Source: Escherichia coli (lineage in GTDB: Bacteria > Pseudomonadota > Gammaproteobacteria > Enterobacterales > Enterobacteriaceae). Taken from it: 64,000 nt of DNA. Under the pieces are notes generated by a model, which searched no databases, had not been told where the DNA came from, and saw only the letters and a program-made list of their open reading frames with translations. The stretch is from the NCBI RefSeq assembly GCF_009931435.1, contig NZ_CP043414.1; one strand, 5' to 3'. Below are positions 1 to 54,284 of this stretch, piece by piece. Positions within the stretch are counted from its first letter, which is position 1. Each line of letters opens with the position of its first letter. A program made the translations under genes and the position numbers.

Positions 1-3000
1 GCTGCTCCCAAAACGAACCCGTGGCGCACTGGCAGTAGTGTTGAACGCCCAGAGGGGGTCTTTGAATACCTCCATTCCATGCGCCGTGTTTTTACATAAC
101 GTAATGGCAGCAGATGCACTCTCTCCACGTCGACCCGCGCGGCCTGCACGCTGCAAATAATTTGCCGGAGCTGGAGGAACGTTGTTCATTGCCACCAAAC
201 TCATACCACCAATGTCCACCCCCATCTCCATGGTCGTGGAGCAGTTCAGCACATTAACTTTGCCTGACTTAAATTGTTTTTCATTAAACTGGTTCTGCTC
301 AGGCGTTCTCTGCGCAGAGTGTTCCTCCAGACGATACCAGCTATCTTTCAGGGCCAGTCGGTCGCTGCGAGTAGACCATAATCCTTCCTCGCGGGCATGT
401 TGAATCAGCGCATTACTTTCCAGCCACTCCAGACGTTCTTCTCGGGCGATTTCTCCACCACCAGACAAACGCCAGTGACGTACAGGAAGCTCAGGCATTT
501 CAATCAACACTGCTTTTTCAGGTGCAATTTCTTTGCTACCCGGCAAATACGGAGAGTATCCCAGTAACGTGACGTCTAACGCACGTCGAGTATAGGGGCA
601 ACGCCACACTTGCTTTGGACTGTAAAATTCAGCTTGTTGTTTAATATCCAGCTGATAACCCGACTCAAACTGACGTAAGCAGGGTCGAATTGCATCCCAG
701 ACCTCAATCATTAAGTGGTTAACTAACGATTTCCAGTGAGCCTGCTCAGGTTGTATTGCCGGAAAGACTGCAATTAATAGCTTAATGACCCGGTTATAAT
801 GGCGATCGCGTATTTGTGGCCAAAGTTGATCACGTTTCTGCCCTTTGTTTTTTTTATCTGGACCCTGCAGCATTTTTACCGGGAAACGAGCCCCCATCCA
901 GCGAGGGTATTGCTCGTTTTCGTAAAAAACGGCACTGTTTTCACGTATAAAGAAATCAAGAGTAATCTTCAATAAATTACGCCATTCCGCTAATTGCTTA
1001 TCGGGATCGGGTAATAATGTCTTCCAGTCCTGCGGGCAGGTTGTAACTTTATCAATAAATGGATAGTGAATGGCTACCAGACCCAGACTTTCGAGGGTCC
1101 AGGCATTTTTAGGGCGGCGACCAAACTCACTGTATAAACAAAAATCTGCAAACTGTTGTTTAGTAAGATCAAGCCCAGACAATTCTTTAAAACTGCCTCT
1201 CATTCTATCGGCAAGGTCCACACTGCCAACCAGCTGTTCAGACAGTGTTTGCCATGACATGGTTTTCTTCTGCTGATTGCCAGAGTTAGCCTGGAGTATT
1301 TGCATCGCTTCAGCATGATCCGGGCTTAAGGAACTCACCATCGGCTCGATAATTTTAAGTGCCTGAATGTCCGCCGGGCTAAGCTCTTCATTAGCAACCA
1401 TCGCTTTTTTCAGCGCGTCAATAGAGTTTTTTAAAGGAAGGATAGAAAACTGGGCAATAAAACTCTCTAACAATGCGCAGTGTGCCGGGCTGAGCTTTGC
1501 TGATGGCTCATTAATATTGGCCAGCTCCTGGTAGCAAAGAGCTCGCAACGTCGCTTTATCGGCATCCTGCTGTAAGCGGGCAGAAATGCGGGCAGTGCCC
1601 TGACGTGAATCCGTAAAGGTGAGCAGACGTCGACCATTAAACGGTCCTAACTGCTCTTCTCTTGTCTGCGGTAATGGTGAAAACTCCAGCAGAGTAGGAA
1701 TAATTTCATTTAAAAAAAAGGGCGCGCCAAGTCGAAGCGGACGGAATAAAGGATTATTTTTTCGTTGGGTGTCACCACAGCAAACACAAGCAAAGGAATT
1801 ATTACGTCCCTCACCTCGAGATTCCGGTCTTAACAGGTTTATTTCATAGTGCTTTTGCGCTTCACTATCAATTTTCCCCGCCGTCGTTTCTTCCAGTGAA
1901 ATGATATATTTTTCACCATCGCTCGCAATCAGACGATCAAATTGAGAGTTATTGTCTAATTCGTCGTTGTCTTCATCTTCAGAATAAACATCTACATCAA
2001 GAGCAAACTCATCCACTTCGGCAGCGGCGGGTTGCGCTACCAACCAGTTCGTTCCATCACCGCGCATCTCCTCTTTGGCAGACAAATAAGCTGAACCACA
2101 CCCGGAGCAACGTAAAACTTCAAATACCGGCGCACCACAGTCACAATATTGGCGCTGCTCAAACCATACCTGACCAAATGGCCAGTCACTCTGATTTAAT
2201 TCATGTGCTTTATGTGAGCATTGTTTGTTTGAACATGCCCATAGACCCGCCAGTGTTCTGATAAATCCATGCATACGTAATGGCGTAAAAGCCAGTTCAC
2301 CTTCTCGCGATCTTGCCATTAGATCGAGGAGTTGCAGTAGCTCACGGTGATTAATATCTGGCCAGGTTCTTCTGGCAACATTGAGCAACTCACTCAAACG
2401 TACTGCCTGCCGTCCGGGATGAGTTAACGCCTGACGCAATTGCTGGGCCACACGGTAATGACAAAGCTGTTGGTAAAGATCCTGAGGGCTCAGAGATTTA
2501 AGAGAAGTTAAAGATGTGGGGTATTCATGACGAATCAGCGACTCCGATACCCGCGGTATTTGTCGATAACCGCGAACCACTTTGACATCACGTTCTGTAA
2601 CGCCCGCGAGATCAGCGACAAATTTAGCAAGCTCCTTATTACCTTCAGGAGAGTCTTCACCAATAGTGGCAGAGGTCGCGATAATCTGCACAGGTTTATC
2701 TGTGCCGGGTCCAACATTGAAAGCCTGCATAACACGACGTAAAAGCAGCGCTAACTCAGCAGCCTGAGAACCAATATAACTATGGGCTTCATCCAGGACG
2801 ATATACTTTAACATCCCCTGAGACTTTTCGATGATTGGGGCATCTTTACGACGAATCAGCATATATTCCAGCATGGTGGTATTCGTCACCATGATGGAAG
2901 GTGGTGCTTCGTAAATGGCTTCCCGACTCAAAGCTTGTTCAGGTACTTTCAACTGATCTTCCTGAATTTCGTATTTGGTATGCCGGGTTTCGCCATTATA

Positions 3001-3543
3001 TAGCGCGAAGCGTATTTTCCCCTTAAATCCGCGCGTCCATTCGCGAAGCCGCTCCTGTTGACTGTTAATTAATGCATTTAACGGATACAAGAAAATAGCT
3101 TGTGTCCCTGTTAGTGACTGGCGGGTCGATTTTTGCTGACGAATAAGATCTTCCAGAACCGGTACCATAAAGCATTCTGTTTTCCCGGATCCCGTACCGC
3201 TGCTCACTAACAAGGATTTTTTGTCTTCCAGAATTGTTCGCCACGCAGTGAGTTGATGACGAAATGGCACTGGCGCTTTGCTCAATGCATCAACCAGCGG
3301 GCTGGAGATCAGCTTGTCCCGCAAATCCTCCATTGTTTCATCCGCAGGCATCCAGCCGAATGTACTTTCGAATACCGGGTCTGCAAGCAGTGACCCCTCC
3401 TGACCGGGAGGCTGAAAATATTGTGATTCCAGATAATGAGTCAACGACTTGCTCCGCAATGCCAACTGACTTACCACCGACCTCACCGCACGCTGATGAA
3501 GCTGATTTAGAAGTGGCGCATAATGCAGTTGCTGAACGTCCAT
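1..3543 (-). CDS. Large superfamily-2 DEAH helicase, C-terminus runs off the window (at least 1181 codons visible); candidate Druantia DruE-like
   Basis: Minus-strand frame appears uninterrupted from ATG at 3541-3543 to position 1 (checked by hand at several points; not in ORF track because no stop in window). Walker A SSGTGSGKT near 3179-3205, DEAH box VLDEAH at 2782-2799, motif V MEMGVDIGG near 205-231, motif VI QRAGRAGRRGE near 121-153. Cys clusters (FACVCCGD, CSNKQCSH, CDCGAPVFEVLRCSGCG) lie between about 1770 and 2260. Confidence 0.75.
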   Translation of the reverse strand, partial: MDVQQLHYAPLLNQLHQRAVRSVVSQLALRSKSLTHYLESQYFQPPGQEGSLLADPVFESTFGWMPADETMEDLRDKLISSPLVDALSKAPVPFRHQLTAWRTILEDKKSLLVSSGTGSGKTECFMVPVLEDLIRQQKSTRQSLTGTQAIFLYPLNALINSQQERLREWTRGFKGKIRFALYNGETRHTKYEIQEDQLKVPEQALSREAIYEAPPSIMVTNTTMLEYMLIRRKDAPIIEKSQGMLKYIVLDEAHSYIGSQAAELALLLRRVMQAFNVGPGTDKPVQIIATSATIGEDSPEGNKELAKFVADLAGVTERDVKVVRGYRQIPRVSESLIRHEYPTSLTSLKSLSPQDLYQQLCHYRVAQQLRQALTHPGRQAVRLSELLNVARRTWPDINHRELLQLLDLMARSREGELAFTPLRMHGFIRTLAGLWACSNKQCSHKAHELNQSDWPFGQVWFEQRQYCDCGAPVFEVLRCSGCGSAYLSAKEEMRGDGTNWLVAQPAAAEVDEFALDVDVYSEDEDNDELDNNSQFDRLIASDGEKYIISLEETTAGKIDSEAQKHYEINLLRPESRGEGRNNSFACVCCGDTQRKNNPLFRPLRLGAPFFLNEIIPTLLEFSPLPQTREEQLGPFNGRRLLTFTDSRQGTARISARLQQDADKATLRALCYQELANINEPSAKLSPAHCALLESFIAQFSILPLKNSIDALKKAMVANEELSPADIQALKIIEPMVSSLSPDHAEAMQILQANSGNQQKKTMSWQTLSEQLVGSVDLADRMRGSFKELSGLDLTKQQFADFCLYSEFGRRPKNAWTLESLGLVAIHYPFIDKVTTCPQDWKTLLPDPDKQLAEWRNLLKITLDFFIRENSAVFYENEQYPRWMGARFPVKMLQGPDKKNKGQKRDQLWPQIRDRHYNRVIKLLIAVFPAIQPEQAHWKSLVNHLMIEVWDAIRPCLRQFESGYQLDIKQQAEFYSPKQVWRCPYTRRALDVTLLGYSPYLPGSKEIAPEKAVLIEMPELPVRHWRLSGGGEIAREERLEWLESNALIQHAREEGLWSTRSDRLALKDSWYRLEEHSAQRTPEQNQFNEKQFKSGKVNVLNCSTTMEMGVDIGGMSLVAMNNVPPAPANYLQRAGRAGRRGESASAAITLCKNTAHGMEVFKDPLWAFNTTASAPRVRFGSS

Positions 3544-6500
3544 CAATGACATACTCCTGCTTGTTCAAAATAATATTGATAGATTACCCCTAATTGCTGT
3601 GGGGCTTGCTGATAGTGAAATTCAAAAAGCGCAGACAGTTGATGTATCAGGTTATTATCTTTTTGGGTTAACAGCGCTGCGACTAACATCAAATTAAAAC
3701 GTTTTTCAAGCCGTGAGTGATATTTATCTTCAATCCAAAGCTTATTAAAAACAGATTTTAACTCTGGAGTAATAGCACTAGACCAAAGTTCTTTAGGGAA
3801 GATACTGATACGCCCAAAGCTGTCGGGGTTCCTTAATAGCATCTGTTTAGCTTCATTAAACTGCTCACGACTAACAGTTGGCAATACATCACAACCGGTT
3901 GGTAGGCTCTCACTATATGTAAGTAACATATTCGCAATGGGAGCCAGCCGACGATCGATATGTGCACGATGGTTCATAAAAGCAATAAAGGGTTGCAATA
4001 TATGTAATGCTAATGTTTTATCGTTAATCTGTTTTTCCAGATAAGTCCAACATTTTTGGAAAACATCTTTCCAGATTGAAACGGGAATCCATCCCCATGA
4101 AAAGGGTAATTCTTCCTGTATATCATAAATCGTATCGCTATCACCAGAAAGACATGATGATATTAACAATTGAACAACCACGCGGTAATTACTCGAAATA
4201 CCTCTGAACAAGTCCAGATCCAGCAAGGATAAGCCATTATTCATTTTGTACTTCTTAATATACTCTGTTAATAAACAGCAATAATTTTGCAATGGGTTGT
4301 TATCTATTTCAAAAATTAGCTCATTAAAATTTTTTTTGCGCTGTTCTGGGTCTGCTTCGCATAGAGCATTTAGTAATAAATCATTTGTCTGCAATACAGG
4401 TAGCATCCATTTAATTACTGGTGCAATGCGAGCTGTACCATCAAGTTTTCCCACAATTAACCATGGACTATCCTGAACATTCAGAGCTGAAAGATCATAA
4501 GCAAATTCATCTTTTTTTAGCAATGATTTGTGTAAGCCAGGATCCTTAAGAGAAATAGCATCAACAACCAGTTCGTCTATTCTATTTGCAGGAAAAACAA
4601 CAGAATTTTTTATATCAACCAGCAACCCTTGATCGTGTTCAATAAAACTACCATCGTAGCGTTTAATATTGAGTGTTGCTTTATCCTTTCCAAATCTGTC
4701 AGAGTAAAAATCAACACATAATGTACTATTGCTGTTCCATGCACATGCCAGCATAGCATTTAGCAAATTATAGTTCTCATAAAGTGAAATTTGTTGTAAT
4801 TTGTCATTGCGTCCTGATAAAAGAGGAAGGTCGGCATGTAAATAACGGAATTTTTCAGCTACTGGATTTTCATCCAATAACTCGATATTAAGATATCCTC
4901 TTCCAGCACATGATATGGTTAATAACTCAGCATCTATTCCATGCAAATGTGCTATAGATGCCACACCATCAAAATGAACAGAACCATCATTAGTTACAAA
5001 TCGGCCACCGCTAACCGGCTTAGGTAATAATAGTTTAAGATTAGAACCATCTTTCCAGGAGACCCGTAAATCAACGGTATTTTCCAGCATCTGCGATGAA
5101 TTATAATAAATAGCACACTCGTTTTGTGAATAATCGGACTTAAGTGTTACTTTTTCATTGTTTGAATATTTATCAATTCTAGTATCCGTTATACCAGAAA
5201 GCATAATAATGCCTTGCTGAGCACTCTCAGGTATAATATTAATATCGAAGTCTGCTGGTAAAACTACAACTTTACCGCTAAATAAAACCTCATCATTAAC
5301 TATTCGCCGGACTTCTATCTGTCCTTTTGGCATTTCTGATGCGACAGAATACCAGGCATTGTTACCTGAACGAATGGAACGCCAAAAAAGTTCTTTCTCC
5401 GGTACAATGCCATATTGCAGATCCTTTTTCCAACCGATCTTCGGCCAGGCTCGATGGACAGGATAATCCGATTTAACCAGTTCAACTTCTGTCGATTTAA
5501 TATAATATTCAATCGCAGAATCATAAAGTTGCTGGGTGCGAATTGTACAAACAGCACCATCATGTAAAACAACGCTAAATACTCCACTTATTTTAGTTAA
5601 GCTGCGTTCACTGTTTTTCAGCAACCTTGGGATATCAAACTCACCTTCTCCACTAATATCTAAATGGCTATTTTTCGGTAGCGAAATAAACAGAGCATTT
5701 AGCCTGGAACTCACAGACCCCATACCGACAAGTTTTAGCTGCGATTCACTCTCATTCATCGCTTCAAAAACCCAGGGGAGTTCTTCAGTAAGTTCATAAC
5801 CGCCTTTTGGAATTGTGTGGCCTAACAGAATTGGACCTTCATGAAGCGACAACGAGATTTCGGCCATTGCATCTGCACCAGAGAGCTTTTGCATCGCAAT
5901 AGGTAATAACTCGACCCGCCAATCTTGCTGCTCATAACGGCTTAGCATTGCCAACCTTGCCCCGCCATTTCTCCATTTTCCTGAAATGATGAGTCGGGTC
6001 TGCTCCGGCTGAATATGGCATTCAAACAAAGAGGTTAACTGTTCTGTACGCATTGTGGCCGGGAATCGGAACCGGGCATCACAATACCAACTGTCATCAA
6101 CATCGACCCAGATTCTTTCAACCTGAAGACTACTTGCACTGCGTATTTCAGAAGATTGAGAAAGTAATCGCCTTACAATCTCTGCAGCATTCGCTTCGGG
6201 GAGAACGAGTGGAAGTTGAAGATGCCAGTCTGGAGAGAGCTTACGTAATGCAGAAACGGGATCACTGCTTTGAGGTGGATGCTCACTAAGTAATCGGCAG
6301 AGAGTCTCGCAGAATTCACCGGCTATTTCATAGACCAGTTCGTTTTGCATTGTGACAGGAATCGTATCGCCTAATTCTTGTGCAATTTTAGCGGCAGGAT
6401 ATTGAGATGCTTGCCCACGAAGCGCCTGATATATCCTTCTGAAATAGGTAATCAAATAACCGCTCTCATTTTCAATCATGCGGATAGGTAAACCACCTTC

Positions 6501-28475: not shown

Positions 28476-28595
28476 TGCATCAGGCTGTGTTGTTATTGTC
28501 GGATGCGGCGTGAATGCCTTATCCGACCTACACAGAGTACCGGACCCGTAGGCCTGATAAGACGCGACAGCGTCGCATCAGGCAATTCGGCGTTT
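28476..28595. repeat. REP/BIME-type repetitive extragenic palindromes between pepA and holC
   Basis: gccggatgcggcgtgaatgccttatccgacctaca and gtaggcctgataagacgcgacagcgtcgcatcaggc units. Confidence 0.6.
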
Positions 28596-52685: not shown

Positions 52686-52704
52686 TCTTCACTCTGCGCT
52701 AAGC

Positions 52705-52790
<86 letters not shown>

Positions 52791-52819
52791 ACACGCGGAC
52801 TGATAAGCCAGGCGAAATA

Positions 52820-53284
52820 ATGAATTATCATCAGTACTATCCTGTCGACATCGTCAACGGCCCCGGCACTCGCTGCACCCTGTTTGTCTCCGGGTGTGTT
52901 CATGAATGCCCCGGTTGCTATAACAAAAGCACCTGGCGGGTAAATTCCGGTCAGCCATTTACCAAAGCAATGGAAGACCAGATCATTAACGATCTGAATG
53001 ACACCCGCATCAAACGCCAGGGTATTTCCCTCTCCGGCGGCGATCCGCTGCATCCGCAAAACGTGCCGGATATTCTGAAACTGGTACAACGCATCCGCGC
53101 CGAATGTCCTAGTAAAGACATCTGGGTGTGGACAGGCTATAAACTCGACGAACTCAACGCTACGCAAATGCAGGTTGTTGATTTGATTAACGTGCTGGTC
53201 GACGGCAAATTTATGCAGGATCTAAAAGACCCTTCCCTGATCTGGCGCGGCAGCAGCAATCAGGTGGTGCATCATTTGCGTTAG
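52820..53284 (+). CDS. nrdG: Anaerobic ribonucleotide reductase activating protein (radical SAM)
   Basis: CxxxCxxC radical-SAM cluster motif CVHECPGCYN; start placed at MNYHQYYP. Confidence 0.9.
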   Translation: MNYHQYYPVDIVNGPGTRCTLFVSGCVHECPGCYNKSTWRVNSGQPFTKAMEDQIINDLNDTRIKRQGISLSGGDPLHPQNVPDILKLVQRIRAECPSKDIWVWTGYKLDELNATQMQVVDLINVLVDGKFMQDLKDPSLIWRGSSNQVVHHLR

Positions 53285-53524
53285 TCACTCACCCAGTCGG
53301 ACCTTAATGGCCTCCTGTGGGTTGGCCAGTCGTTCCCTGACAGTGCGTAACAAGGCTTCTTCACTATCACTGACAGTGAGCGTTTTTACCGGCATTCGTC
53401 CATTTTCCGCAACGTACTGAAACAGCAGCCGCACTGCTTCAGTAGGCGTGATGTTTAATTTTTCCAGCACCGCATAAGCCTCATTTTTCAGTTTGTCATC
53501 CAGGCGGACGTTAAGTGTGGCCAT
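53285..53524 (-). CDS. Ribbon-helix-helix protein resembling RelB/DinJ-family antitoxins; no toxin partner in view
   Basis: 79 aa, MATLNVRLDDKLKNEAYAVLEKLNITPTEAVRLL resembles DinJ N-terminus (ARIDEDLKNQAADVL...); downstream is convergent nrdG. Confidence 0.5.
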   Translation of the reverse strand: MATLNVRLDDKLKNEAYAVLEKLNITPTEAVRLLFQYVAENGRMPVKTLTVSDSEEALLRTVRERLANPQEAIKVRLGE

Positions 53525-53714
53525 TATGCCTCCGGTAATTATGAAAAGTGTAATGCATTATAGCAGTACATATGCATTACATTCATTTCTGGAAAACGCC
53601 TCGCAAAAATGAGGATGACACGCAGGATTATGTCGTGGTGAAGATAGATATTGCGGTGATTTTTCGAAGGGTAAGAAAGCGTTGGGCGGTAACGTTTCAC
53701 CGCCCAATAAGGAA

Positions 53715-54104
<390 letters not shown>

Positions 54105-54284
54105 TCACTTCCTTTTTTATTTACACTTCATCCTTCACACTGCCTCATCGACGGCTACGCTCATTCGACCGGGTCACGTACTACGAGTACGCTCCCCGGC
54201 TCTCATTCACTTTCCGTCTCGATGCAGCGCGAATGATTTTGTGTAATTTTTTAGTTTATGGCGCGGCAGGTCGCGCCAGCTTTT

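What the first reader, a model, noticed from the sequence alone, without database searches (positions are those of the whole stretch)
53285..53524. Solitary RelB/DinJ-like antitoxin gene wedged between cybC and nrdG
A 79-aa ribbon-helix-helix protein resembling DinJ/RelB antitoxins has no toxin partner visible. Its stop abuts the convergent nrdG stop, and only 190 bp of non-coding DNA separates it from cybC. Orphan antitoxins can act as regulators or as anti-addiction or anti-defence factors.
Basis: partly seen in the sequence, partly recalled or inferred. Interest (0 to 1): 0.4.

Follow-up and report, generated by a model that had tools for sequence, protein, structure and literature searches.

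The report
Orphan RelB antitoxin, toxin gene deleted
This is a real 79-residue RelB-type antitoxin gene that survives from an old relBE toxin-antitoxin pair next to nrdG, whose toxin gene was cut out cleanly between two 8-bp repeats; it is an ordinary, already annotated kind of relic.

Summary
Window 53285-53524 (-) encodes a 79-aa RelB-family ribbon-helix-helix antitoxin. Its stop codon abuts the nrdG stop, it lies 190 bp from cybC, and no toxin gene sits beside it.

It is the surviving half of a relBE operon. That operon lies convergent to nrdG in 31 species-representative genomes, nearly all Enterobacteriaceae, and appears to correspond to Salmonella STM4449-STM4450.

Of 5,426 complete E. 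coli genomes:
- about 393 carry the pair at this site;
- about 60 carry the antitoxin alone;
- about 4,970 carry neither.

The toxin was lost by a 283-bp deletion between two copies of CTGGATGA, the shared L-D-E codons at the ends of both genes. This leaves the antitoxin in frame (…RLDEL becomes …RLDE).

The same deletion occurs on many haplotype backgrounds and in two crossover variants (CGA or CGG at codon 76), so it has probably happened repeatedly. Frameshifts and an IS100 insertion also kill the toxin while the antitoxin stays intact.

The window allele has further private changes: D78G at a nearly invariant residue and an A-to-C change in the central operator hexad.

Most likely it is an expressed, self-repressing leftover with nothing to neutralise in cis. 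An anti-addiction role is possible but untested. The kind is known; interest is low.

The parts
53285..53524 (-). relB-like antitoxin CDS, 79 aa including stop. N-terminal ribbon-helix-helix (beta 3-6, helices 10-23 and 27-41) and C-terminal toxin-binding part (helix 54-67, strand 74-77).
   Evidence: ORF list; Pfam and NCBIfam hits above their cut-offs; PDB RelB 4FXE and 2K29 by sequence; AlphaFold2 model whose best Foldseek matches are 4FXE_B and 2K29; dN/dS 0.065.
53289..53296 (-). Deletion scar: the single surviving copy of the 8-bp direct repeat. It reads CTGGATGA on the coding strand in other solo alleles and CTGGGTGA here. The 283-bp relE deletion took place across it. Position 53292 carries the window-lineage D78G change.
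   Evidence: Alignment of the window with paired and solo alleles. Core-region lengths are 1282 bp in solo alleles and 1565 bp in paired alleles.
53529..53533 (-). Shine-Dalgarno GGAGG, 4 nt upstream of the ATG.
   Evidence: Read directly from the sequence; conserved across genera.
53549..53582 (-). Promoter and operator. On the coding strand: ATGTAATGCA - ATGTAcTGC - TATAAT - GCATTACA. The -10 box TATAAT (53557-53562) has an extended TG and is bracketed by TGTAAT/ATTACA hexads. Window-private SNP 53566 changes the central hexad from ATGTAA to ATGTAC.
   Evidence: Perfect 10-bp inverted repeat 53549-53558 / 53572-53581. The motif is conserved in nearly all of the 35 homologous loci, and the central TGTAAT is altered only in the window lineage. 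The hexad core [A/T]TGT[A/C]A of K-12 relO is described in PMC2812701.
53682..53707 (-). cybC terminator hairpin, which insulates the relB promoter from cybC read-through.
   Evidence: Terminator scan; inverted repeat I3.
52820..53284 (+). nrdG, the convergent neighbour. Its stop codon abuts the antitoxin stop, as it abuts the relE stop in paired alleles.
   Evidence: NCBIfam NF008335, 311 bits; synteny in 31 loci.
53715..54101 (-). cybC (cytochrome b562), the upstream neighbour on the same strand.
   Evidence: Pfam PF07361 and NCBIfam NF011632.

Best explanation
The gene is the antitoxin half of an old chromosomal relBE-family type II toxin-antitoxin operon that sits tail-to-tail with nrdG.

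Origin (shown). In the ancestor of this allele, relE (96 aa) followed relB with an 11-nt overlap. Both genes end with the codons CTG GAT GA(A/G) for L-D-E, which creates an 8-bp direct repeat 283 bp apart (11 bp with one mismatch). A deletion between the repeats, most simply by replication slippage or microhomology-mediated recombination (inferred), removed relE exactly. It fused relB to the relE stop codon, giving a 79-aa protein ending …RLDE instead of …RLDEL.

Why the antitoxin survives (inferred). Losing the toxin first is the route expected to be viable, so the antitoxin is what remains.

Present state (inferred). The promoter (extended -10), the TGTAAT/ATTACA operator hexads and the Shine-Dalgarno site are retained. 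The protein is therefore probably still made and probably binds its own operator as an RHH dimer. Repression would be weaker than in the intact system, because the RelE co-repressor is gone and one hexad is mutated. It has no cognate toxin to neutralise in cis.

The window lineage adds D78G at a nearly invariant residue, consistent with relaxed constraint on the toxin-binding tail.

Likelihoods. Origin as a relBE relic by repeat-mediated toxin deletion: about 0.95. Mostly functionless autorepressor today rather than a selected factor: about 0.6.
For: Identity
- RelB family by Pfam, NCBIfam and PDB sequence matches, and by predicted fold.

Allelic series at the same site in E. coli
- Paired allele L001/L013, with RelE 291 nt overlapping RelB 243 nt.
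- Solo allele L003.
- Empty allele L002.
- Counts: 454 genomes carry the cassette and 393 of them include the toxin. 394 genomes have toxin DNA. 32 genomes match the exact solo junction under a strict search, including IAI39 and CE10.

Junction
- The toxin ends CGG CTG GAT GAG TGA and the antitoxin ends CGA CTG GAT GAA CTA TGA.
- Solo alleles read CG(A/G) CTG GAT GAG TGA.

The missing toxin is a true RelE
- It matches K-12 RelE structures (4V7K, 4FXE) at E 4e-34 over residues 1-94.
- My reading of that alignment, using K-12 residue numbers recalled from memory, is that K52, K54, R61, R81 and Y87 are conserved.

Ancient synteny
- relB-relE lies convergent to nrdG in 31 of 35 species-representative genomes.

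Asymmetric decay
- The antitoxin ORF is intact in 35 of 35 loci. The toxin is frameshifted or truncated in 7 and deleted in 2.
- In E. coli the toxin is also frameshifted or split by IS100, with the antitoxin intact in both cases.

Recurrence
- Solo alleles fall at 5 to 8 separate places in a local tree.
- All four allele combinations occur between the deletion and the sites at 53284 and 53315.
- Four solo alleles carry the toxin-derived CGG at codon 76, while all 9 alleles that retain relE carry CGA.
- The 8-bp repeat exists in E. coli-type alleles (a comparable 8-bp repeat occurs in Trabulsiella) but not in the other genera examined, and solo alleles were seen only in Escherichia.

Regulatory region
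- It is conserved across genera.
- It matches the K-12 relO hexad core (PMC2812701).
Against: - No expression data exist for this allele. The consensus promoter scan found nothing; the promoter call rests on my reading of an extended -10 with a poor -35.
- The antitoxin protein is identical across most solo haplotypes, and only synonymous differences accumulate in the RHH half. This could mean continued selection rather than neutrality.
- One genome (RM14516) keeps an intact toxin with a 124-bp frameshifting deletion inside the antitoxin. So the rule that the antitoxin cannot be lost first is not absolute, or this toxin is weak, or another antitoxin covers it.
- Recurrence could in principle be an old polymorphism shuffled by very short recombination tracts, or repeated synonymous mutation at codon 76.
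- Only 64 kb of this genome is visible, so a related toxin elsewhere cannot be excluded.
Confidence: 0.8

Rival explanations
1. The orphan is kept by selection as an anti-addiction or immunity factor. Free RelB neutralises related RelE toxins that arrive on plasmids or prophages, or by recombination from strains with the paired allele. This would protect the cell from post-segregational killing.
For: - The ORF is intact and annotated as functional in all 32 strictly matched solo genomes. The …RLDE form is seen on at least 1000 contigs.
- Promoter, operator and Shine-Dalgarno site are retained.
- RelE homologues occur on 3,936 plasmid records, 1,678 of them from Escherichia, with the best at about 64-66% identity. 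One occurs on an E. coli phage at 64%.
- K-12 RelB lacking residues 70-79 still neutralises RelE (PMC12301738), so D78G and the loss of L80 need not abolish binding.
- The concept is established for ccd and has been proposed for orphan antitoxins (PMC7354431).
Against: - The antitoxins paired with those plasmid toxins are only about 50-53% identical to this one, and cross-talk between non-cognate pairs is rare (PMC12301738 abstract).
- In solo lineages the nonsynonymous changes cluster in the toxin-binding tail: D78G, D78N, A72T and E55D. That looks like relaxation rather than maintenance of binding.
- About 92% of E. coli genomes do without the gene.
Confidence: 0.25
2. The orphan has been domesticated as a transcription factor that controls other genes, for example cybC, nrdDG or another TA operon.
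For: The RHH domain is unchanged in every solo allele examined. The gene lies between two regulated genes, and no terminator separates it from nrdG.
Against: - The paired operator arrangement occurs only once in the 64-kb window, at its own promoter. The scattered single half-site matches with one mismatch are unremarkable.
- The window allele has itself mutated one operator hexad.
- Most E. coli lack the gene, yet nrdG and cybC are present in essentially all of them.
Confidence: 0.05
3. It is half of a split system: the cognate toxin is encoded elsewhere in the same genome.
For: Only 64 kb of the genome can be inspected. Split TA systems have been described (PMC10790755).
Against: - Toxin DNA was found only on chromosomes, with a median of one place per genome and at most two. 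It lay at the nrdG site in every locus examined.
- The count of genomes with the antitoxin but without toxin DNA, about 57-61, matches the solo class.
- No toxin-like sequence is present in the window.
Confidence: 0.04
4. It is a chance or unexpressed open frame.
For: The automatic sigma-70 scan found no promoter.
Against: dN/dS is 0.065. The protein is 80-91% identical across most of the other enterobacterial genera sampled. Family-model scores exceed the curated cut-offs. The Shine-Dalgarno site, -10 box and operator are conserved.
Confidence: 0.01

Closest known systems
E. coli K-12 RelB/RelE (relBE of the Qin prophage; PDB 4FXE, 2K29)
   Same: - Same fold and domain order: RHH, then helix alpha-3, then a C-terminal strand.
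- About 45% identity to RelB over the full length.
- The deleted partner aligns to RelE at E 4e-34, with roughly 60% identical positions by my reading of the alignment.
- Same operator hexad core TGTAA with the -10 box embedded (PMC2812701).
- Same C-terminal LDEL motif in the paired allele.
   Different: - A different locus: beside nrdG rather than in a prophage, and no relF/hokD was annotated in the loci examined.
- In the window the toxin is absent.
- The protein lacks the last Leu, carries D78G, and one operator hexad is altered.
Salmonella Typhimurium STM4449-STM4450 relBE
   Same: Listed as a relEB-type TA (PMC3868539, a retracted paper, used only for the gene list; PMC8708949). Salmonella arizonae and diarizonae carry the homologous pair next to nrdG at 89% antitoxin identity. 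That STM4451 is nrdG is from my memory of LT2 numbering and was not tested.
   Different: The Salmonella loci examined keep an intact 94-aa toxin that ends KRL and lacks the LDE repeat. No solo form was seen there.
Decay of the chromosomal ccdO157 system in E. coli (Mine et al. 2009, cited in PMC2654758)
   Same: A chromosomal TA that is polymorphic within E. coli and is degenerating. In the nrdG-linked relBE series described here, toxin-inactivating lesions predominate while the antitoxin persists.
   Different: A different family (CcdAB versus RelBE). Here a specific 8-bp repeat gives a precise, apparently recurrent, in-frame excision of the toxin gene.
Orphan antitoxins catalogued in E. coli and Klebsiella genome surveys (PMC10790755; Horesh et al. 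as summarised in PMC7354431)
   Same: An antitoxin gene without an adjacent toxin. Such genes are abundant and are mostly interpreted as remnants of degraded pairs or as possible anti-addiction factors.
   Different: Those surveys do not, in the passages I read, describe this locus or its deletion mechanism.

Membership tests
RelB/DinJ antitoxin family (PF04221, TIGR02384, NF008412) | Sequence match to the family models above their curated thresholds | tested here: met
   PF04221: 58.1 bits against 22.4. TIGR02384: 71 against 45.65. NF008412 equivalog: 126 against 96.
RelB/DinJ antitoxin family (PF04221, TIGR02384, NF008412) | [quoted passage not shown] | tested here: met
   The AlphaFold2 model has strand 3-6 and helices 10-23 and 27-41, with mean pLDDT 69. 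The best Foldseek matches are 4FXE_B and the RelB DNA-binding domain 2K29, the latter at rmsd 2.0 Å over 49 columns and probability 1.00.
RelB/DinJ antitoxin family (PF04221, TIGR02384, NF008412) | C-terminal toxin-binding region (helix alpha-3 plus a terminal strand) | tested here: met
   It aligns to RelB residues 1-76, with a predicted helix 54-67 and strand 74-77. However, the nearly invariant D78 is Gly and L80 is missing.
RelB/DinJ antitoxin family (PF04221, TIGR02384, NF008412) | Binds its own operator and represses its promoter | not testable with these tools
   The operator hexads are conserved and overlap the -10 box, but binding was not measured.
Complete type II RelBE toxin-antitoxin system | A RelE-family toxin gene adjacent to and co-transcribed with the antitoxin | tested here: not met
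   The antitoxin stop abuts the nrdG stop, and no RelE-like sequence is present in the window. The toxin is present in allelic loci.
Complete type II RelBE toxin-antitoxin system | The antitoxin neutralises the toxin and is degraded faster (Lon) | not testable with these tools
   Inferred only by homology with K-12 RelB (PMC2812701, PMC12301738).
Anti-addiction module | A related toxin exists on mobile elements that reach this host | tested here: met
   RelE homologues occur on 3,936 plasmid records, 1,678 of them from Escherichia, but at no more than about 66% identity.
Anti-addiction module | The chromosomal antitoxin neutralises that mobile toxin | not testable with these tools
   The plasmid toxins' own antitoxins are only about 50-53% identical to this protein. 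No interaction data exist.

The most novel reading that the evidence does not exclude
The identical L-D-E codons at the 3' ends of relB and relE act as a built-in hotspot that has repeatedly excised the toxin gene precisely and in frame in Escherichia. The resulting toxin-free relB alleles are then kept by selection as immunity against re-acquiring the paired allele, or related plasmid relBE modules, that circulate in the species.
Probability: 0.2. Interest if true: 0.45.

Novelty: already known. Interest (0 to 1): 0.25.

Why it matters
On its own the finding matters little. It is a correctly annotated RelB-family orphan (RefSeq WP_000212714.1 and variants), and orphan antitoxins are common in E. 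coli.

Its value is as a clean natural series at one chromosomal site:
- intact pair;
- frameshifted toxin;
- IS-disrupted toxin;
- precisely deleted toxin;
- empty site.

That series could be used to measure how chromosomal toxin-antitoxin systems decay. It could also test whether leftover antitoxins protect against related mobile toxins, and how often microhomology deletions recur.

Tried and rejected
- **Toxin upstream instead of downstream.** The three small ORFs in the 190-bp spacer (53, 49 and 48 aa) gave no significant Pfam hit and overlap the conserved promoter. Rejected.
- **Non-coding RNA in the spacer.** Rfam at E <= 1 returned no match for 53100-53900.
- **Toxin elsewhere in the window.** tblastn gave nothing better than E 0.038.
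- **Automatic promoter scan.** It found no site because the -35 is poor. The promoter call therefore rests on a conserved extended -10 read by eye and on cross-genus conservation.
- **Phage origin.** Only 6 phage records carry a RelE homologue, the best at 64-68% identity. This gives no support for a recent prophage source.
- **Plasmid copy of this cassette.** The near-identical hits in 'plasmids' are chromosome-sized records of 4.9 and 5.4 Mb, evidently misfiled, not true plasmids.
- **Selection test on solo versus paired alleles.** There are too few substitutions for a formal dN/dS contrast. Only the pattern of changes is reported.
- **First strict junction count.** The figure of 32 genomes undercounts solo alleles with extra SNPs, such as the O145 strains.

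Full report
**1. The observation**

The minus-strand ORF 53285-53524 encodes 79 residues: MATLNVRLDDKLKNEAYAVLEKLNITPTEAVRLLFQYVAENGRMPVKTLTVSDSEEALLRTVRERLANPQEAIKVRLGE. nrdG (52820-53284, +) ends with TAG at 53282-53284. The ORF's stop codon is the next three bases, so the two convergent genes touch. cybC (53715-54101, -) lies upstream on the same strand, 190 bp away. The neighbours are confirmed as nrdD, nrdG, cybC and pmbA.

**2. What the protein is**

- It scores above the curated cut-offs for Pfam RelB (PF04221), NCBIfam RelB_DinJ (TIGR02384) and the RelB equivalog model NF008412.
- It aligns to E. coli K-12 RelB (PDB 4FXE_A) over residues 1-77 at E 1.8e-19.
- An AlphaFold2 model built on 22 homologues gives strand, helix, helix (the ribbon-helix-helix), then a third helix and a terminal strand.
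- The model's best structural matches are RelB 4FXE_B and the RelB DNA-binding domain 2K29 (rmsd 2.0 Å), followed by DinJ.
- Across the enterobacterial homologues the gene evolves with dN/dS = 0.065, so it is a real, constrained gene.

**3. Where the toxin went**

In complete E. coli genomes the nrdG-cybC interval exists in three forms.

- Most genomes have a 44-bp spacer with a hairpin (L002).
- About 393 of 5,426 carry a RelE-family toxin gene (291 nt) followed upstream by the antitoxin (243 nt), with an 11-nt overlap. The toxin stop abuts the nrdG stop (L001/L013).
- About 60 carry the antitoxin alone, collinear with the window. Of these, 32 match the exact junction under a strict search, including the reference strains IAI39 and CE10.

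The toxin in the paired alleles matches K-12 RelE at E 4e-34 across residues 1-94. By my reading of that alignment, the K-12 catalytic residues are retained.

The alignments show how the solo form arose. The toxin ends …CGG CTG GAT GAG TGA (RLDE*). The antitoxin ends …CGA CTG GAT GAA CTA TGA (RLDEL*). The two copies of CTGGATGA lie 283 bp apart. Solo alleles read …CG(A/G) CTG GAT GAG TGA, which is a deletion between the repeats that removes relE and leaves relB in frame, one residue shorter. In the window the surviving repeat is at 53289-53296 and carries a further change, GAT to GGT (D78G, position 53292).

**4. An old resident of the nrdG flank**

A scan of one genome per species with the antitoxin found 35 loci. 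In 31 of them the relB-relE pair lies convergent to nrdG. These include Escherichia, Citrobacter, Salmonella arizonae and diarizonae, Enterobacter, Klebsiella pneumoniae, Kluyvera, Kosakonia, Trabulsiella and Pluralibacter.

The pair is therefore old at this position, and the empty E. coli state is probably a loss. The homologous Salmonella Typhimurium genes appear in TA lists as STM4449-STM4450 relBE. The first of those sources is a retracted paper and was used only for the gene list.

**5. Decay is one-sided**

The antitoxin ORF is full length in all 35 loci. The toxin is frameshifted or truncated in seven (E. coli E69, E. whittamii, Citrobacter sp. NCU1, Enterobacter asburiae, Huaxiibacter, Kosakonia quasisacchari, Rosenbergiella). 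It is deleted in two (E. coli SCPM-O-B-8794 and Escherichia sp. E1V33).

Within E. coli, other routes to a dead toxin with an intact antitoxin also occur: a frameshift in 2020CK-00188 and an IS100 insertion in O158:H23 CFIAFB20140388. This pattern is expected if losing the antitoxin first is usually lethal. It parallels the published degeneration of ccdO157 in E. coli (PMC2654758).

One counter-example was seen. Strain RM14516 has an intact toxin and a 124-bp frameshifting deletion inside the antitoxin.

**6. The deletion has probably happened several times**

- In a local tree of nrdG through cybC, solo alleles fall at five to eight separate positions among paired alleles, including one in a different Escherichia species.
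- The deletion shows all four allele combinations with the nrdG stop-codon polymorphism (TAG/TAA at 53284, 4 bp from the repeat) and with 53315.
- All nine alleles that retain relE have CGA at antitoxin codon 76 and CGG at the matching toxin codon. Eleven solo alleles have CGA. Four have CGG (2013C-4282, WL297, O145 RM9873-C1, AST262), and these lie on two different backgrounds. This is as expected if the crossover fell on either side of the single mismatch in the 11-bp imperfect repeat.
- The 8-bp repeat is present in E. coli-type alleles, and a comparable 8-bp repeat occurs in Trabulsiella. It is absent from the other genera, whose toxins end KRL*. Solo alleles were found only in Escherichia.

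An old polymorphism reshuffled by very short recombination tracts cannot be fully excluded. I rate recurrence at about 0.75.

**7. Regulatory region and likely present state**

Upstream of the ATG the coding strand reads ATGTAATGCA-T-ATGTAcTGC-TATAAT-GCATTACA…GGAGG-CATA-ATG.

The TGTAAT/ATTACA hexads bracket a perfect -10 box with an extended TG. This arrangement is conserved in nearly all of the 35 homologous loci. It matches the hexad core [A/T]TGT[A/C]A of K-12 relO, which RelB dimers bind with RelE as co-repressor (PMC2812701).

By inference, the orphan is transcribed and represses itself, less tightly than the intact system because RelE is absent.

The window lineage has two private changes, shared with GCA_002965045.1:

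- A-to-C in the central hexad (53566). This hits the terminal A, which is the least critical base of the hexad in K-12.
- D78G at a residue that is nearly invariant in the family; the conserved final Leu is also lost.

In K-12, RelB lacking residues 70-79 still neutralises RelE (PMC12301738), so these tail changes need not abolish toxin binding.

Across solo lineages the few amino-acid changes all lie in the C-terminal part (D78G, D78N, A72T, E55D), while the RHH half is unchanged. This hints at relaxed constraint on the toxin-binding tail. The numbers are small.

**8. Possible functions**

- Anti-addiction is plausible in principle. RelE homologues are on 3,936 plasmid records, many from E. 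coli.
- However, those toxins are at most about 66% identical to the lost partner, and their own antitoxins are only about 50-53% identical to this one. Non-cognate cross-talk is reported to be rare.
- No evidence was seen for a role in regulating other genes: the paired operator occurs only at the gene's own promoter in the window.
- No evidence was seen for an anti-defence role.

**9. Comparison with what is known, and verdict**

This is a member of the RelB family at equivalog level. It is annotated as such in RefSeq in every genome inspected. It belongs to the well-described class of orphan antitoxins left by TA decay.

The one detail I did not find described, in the papers I searched and read, is the repeat-mediated, in-frame and apparently recurrent excision of relE at the shared LDE codons.

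Interest is 0.25 and the kind is already known.

Noticed in passing
L057 (E. coli RM14516, NZ_CP043937.1) 3047-3640: The reverse case: an intact RelE toxin gene (WP_001105433.1) next to an antitoxin gene with a 124-bp frameshifting internal deletion, with the promoter intact. Either this toxin is weak, or another antitoxin covers it, or its translation depends on coupling to relB, or the assembly is wrong.
   Followed up: partly
window 54118-54246: A 129-bp insertion/deletion polymorphism between cybC and pmbA. It is present in the window, E04 and AR_0067 and absent from most other strains. It is single-copy in the window, and its ends TTACAC…GTGTAA look like short terminal inverted repeats.
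   Followed up: partly
window 52686-52819: The nrdD-nrdG spacer holds REP/BIME-like repeats, with related copies near 28500, 56373 and 62608. It is hypervariable between strains, with several indels and a replaced segment in AR_0067.
   Followed up: partly
L002 1686-1729 (empty allele) versus window 53285-53714: The empty nrdG-cybC allele is not a simple deletion of the cassette. It carries a different hairpin (TTCCCTGTTACC…GGCAACAGGGAA) in place of the cybC terminator hairpin seen in cassette-bearing alleles.
   Followed up: no
window 53282-53287 and the homologous loci L014-L046: No intrinsic terminator separates nrdG from the convergent relB (or relE). The stops abut or lie within about 15 bp in about 30 species, so nrdDG transcripts would run antisense through the TA genes. 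Whether this long-conserved arrangement has regulatory meaning is unknown.
   Followed up: no
L053 (E. coli O158:H23 CFIAFB20140388) 902-3202: An IS100 (istA/istB) element is inserted in the relE gene, with the antitoxin intact.
   Followed up: yes
window 53566-53672: The window lineage has a cluster of private SNPs in the 190-bp relB-cybC spacer (53566, 53616, 53628, 53633, 53672). This is denser than in the flanking genes. It could be a recombination import or relaxed constraint.
   Followed up: partly
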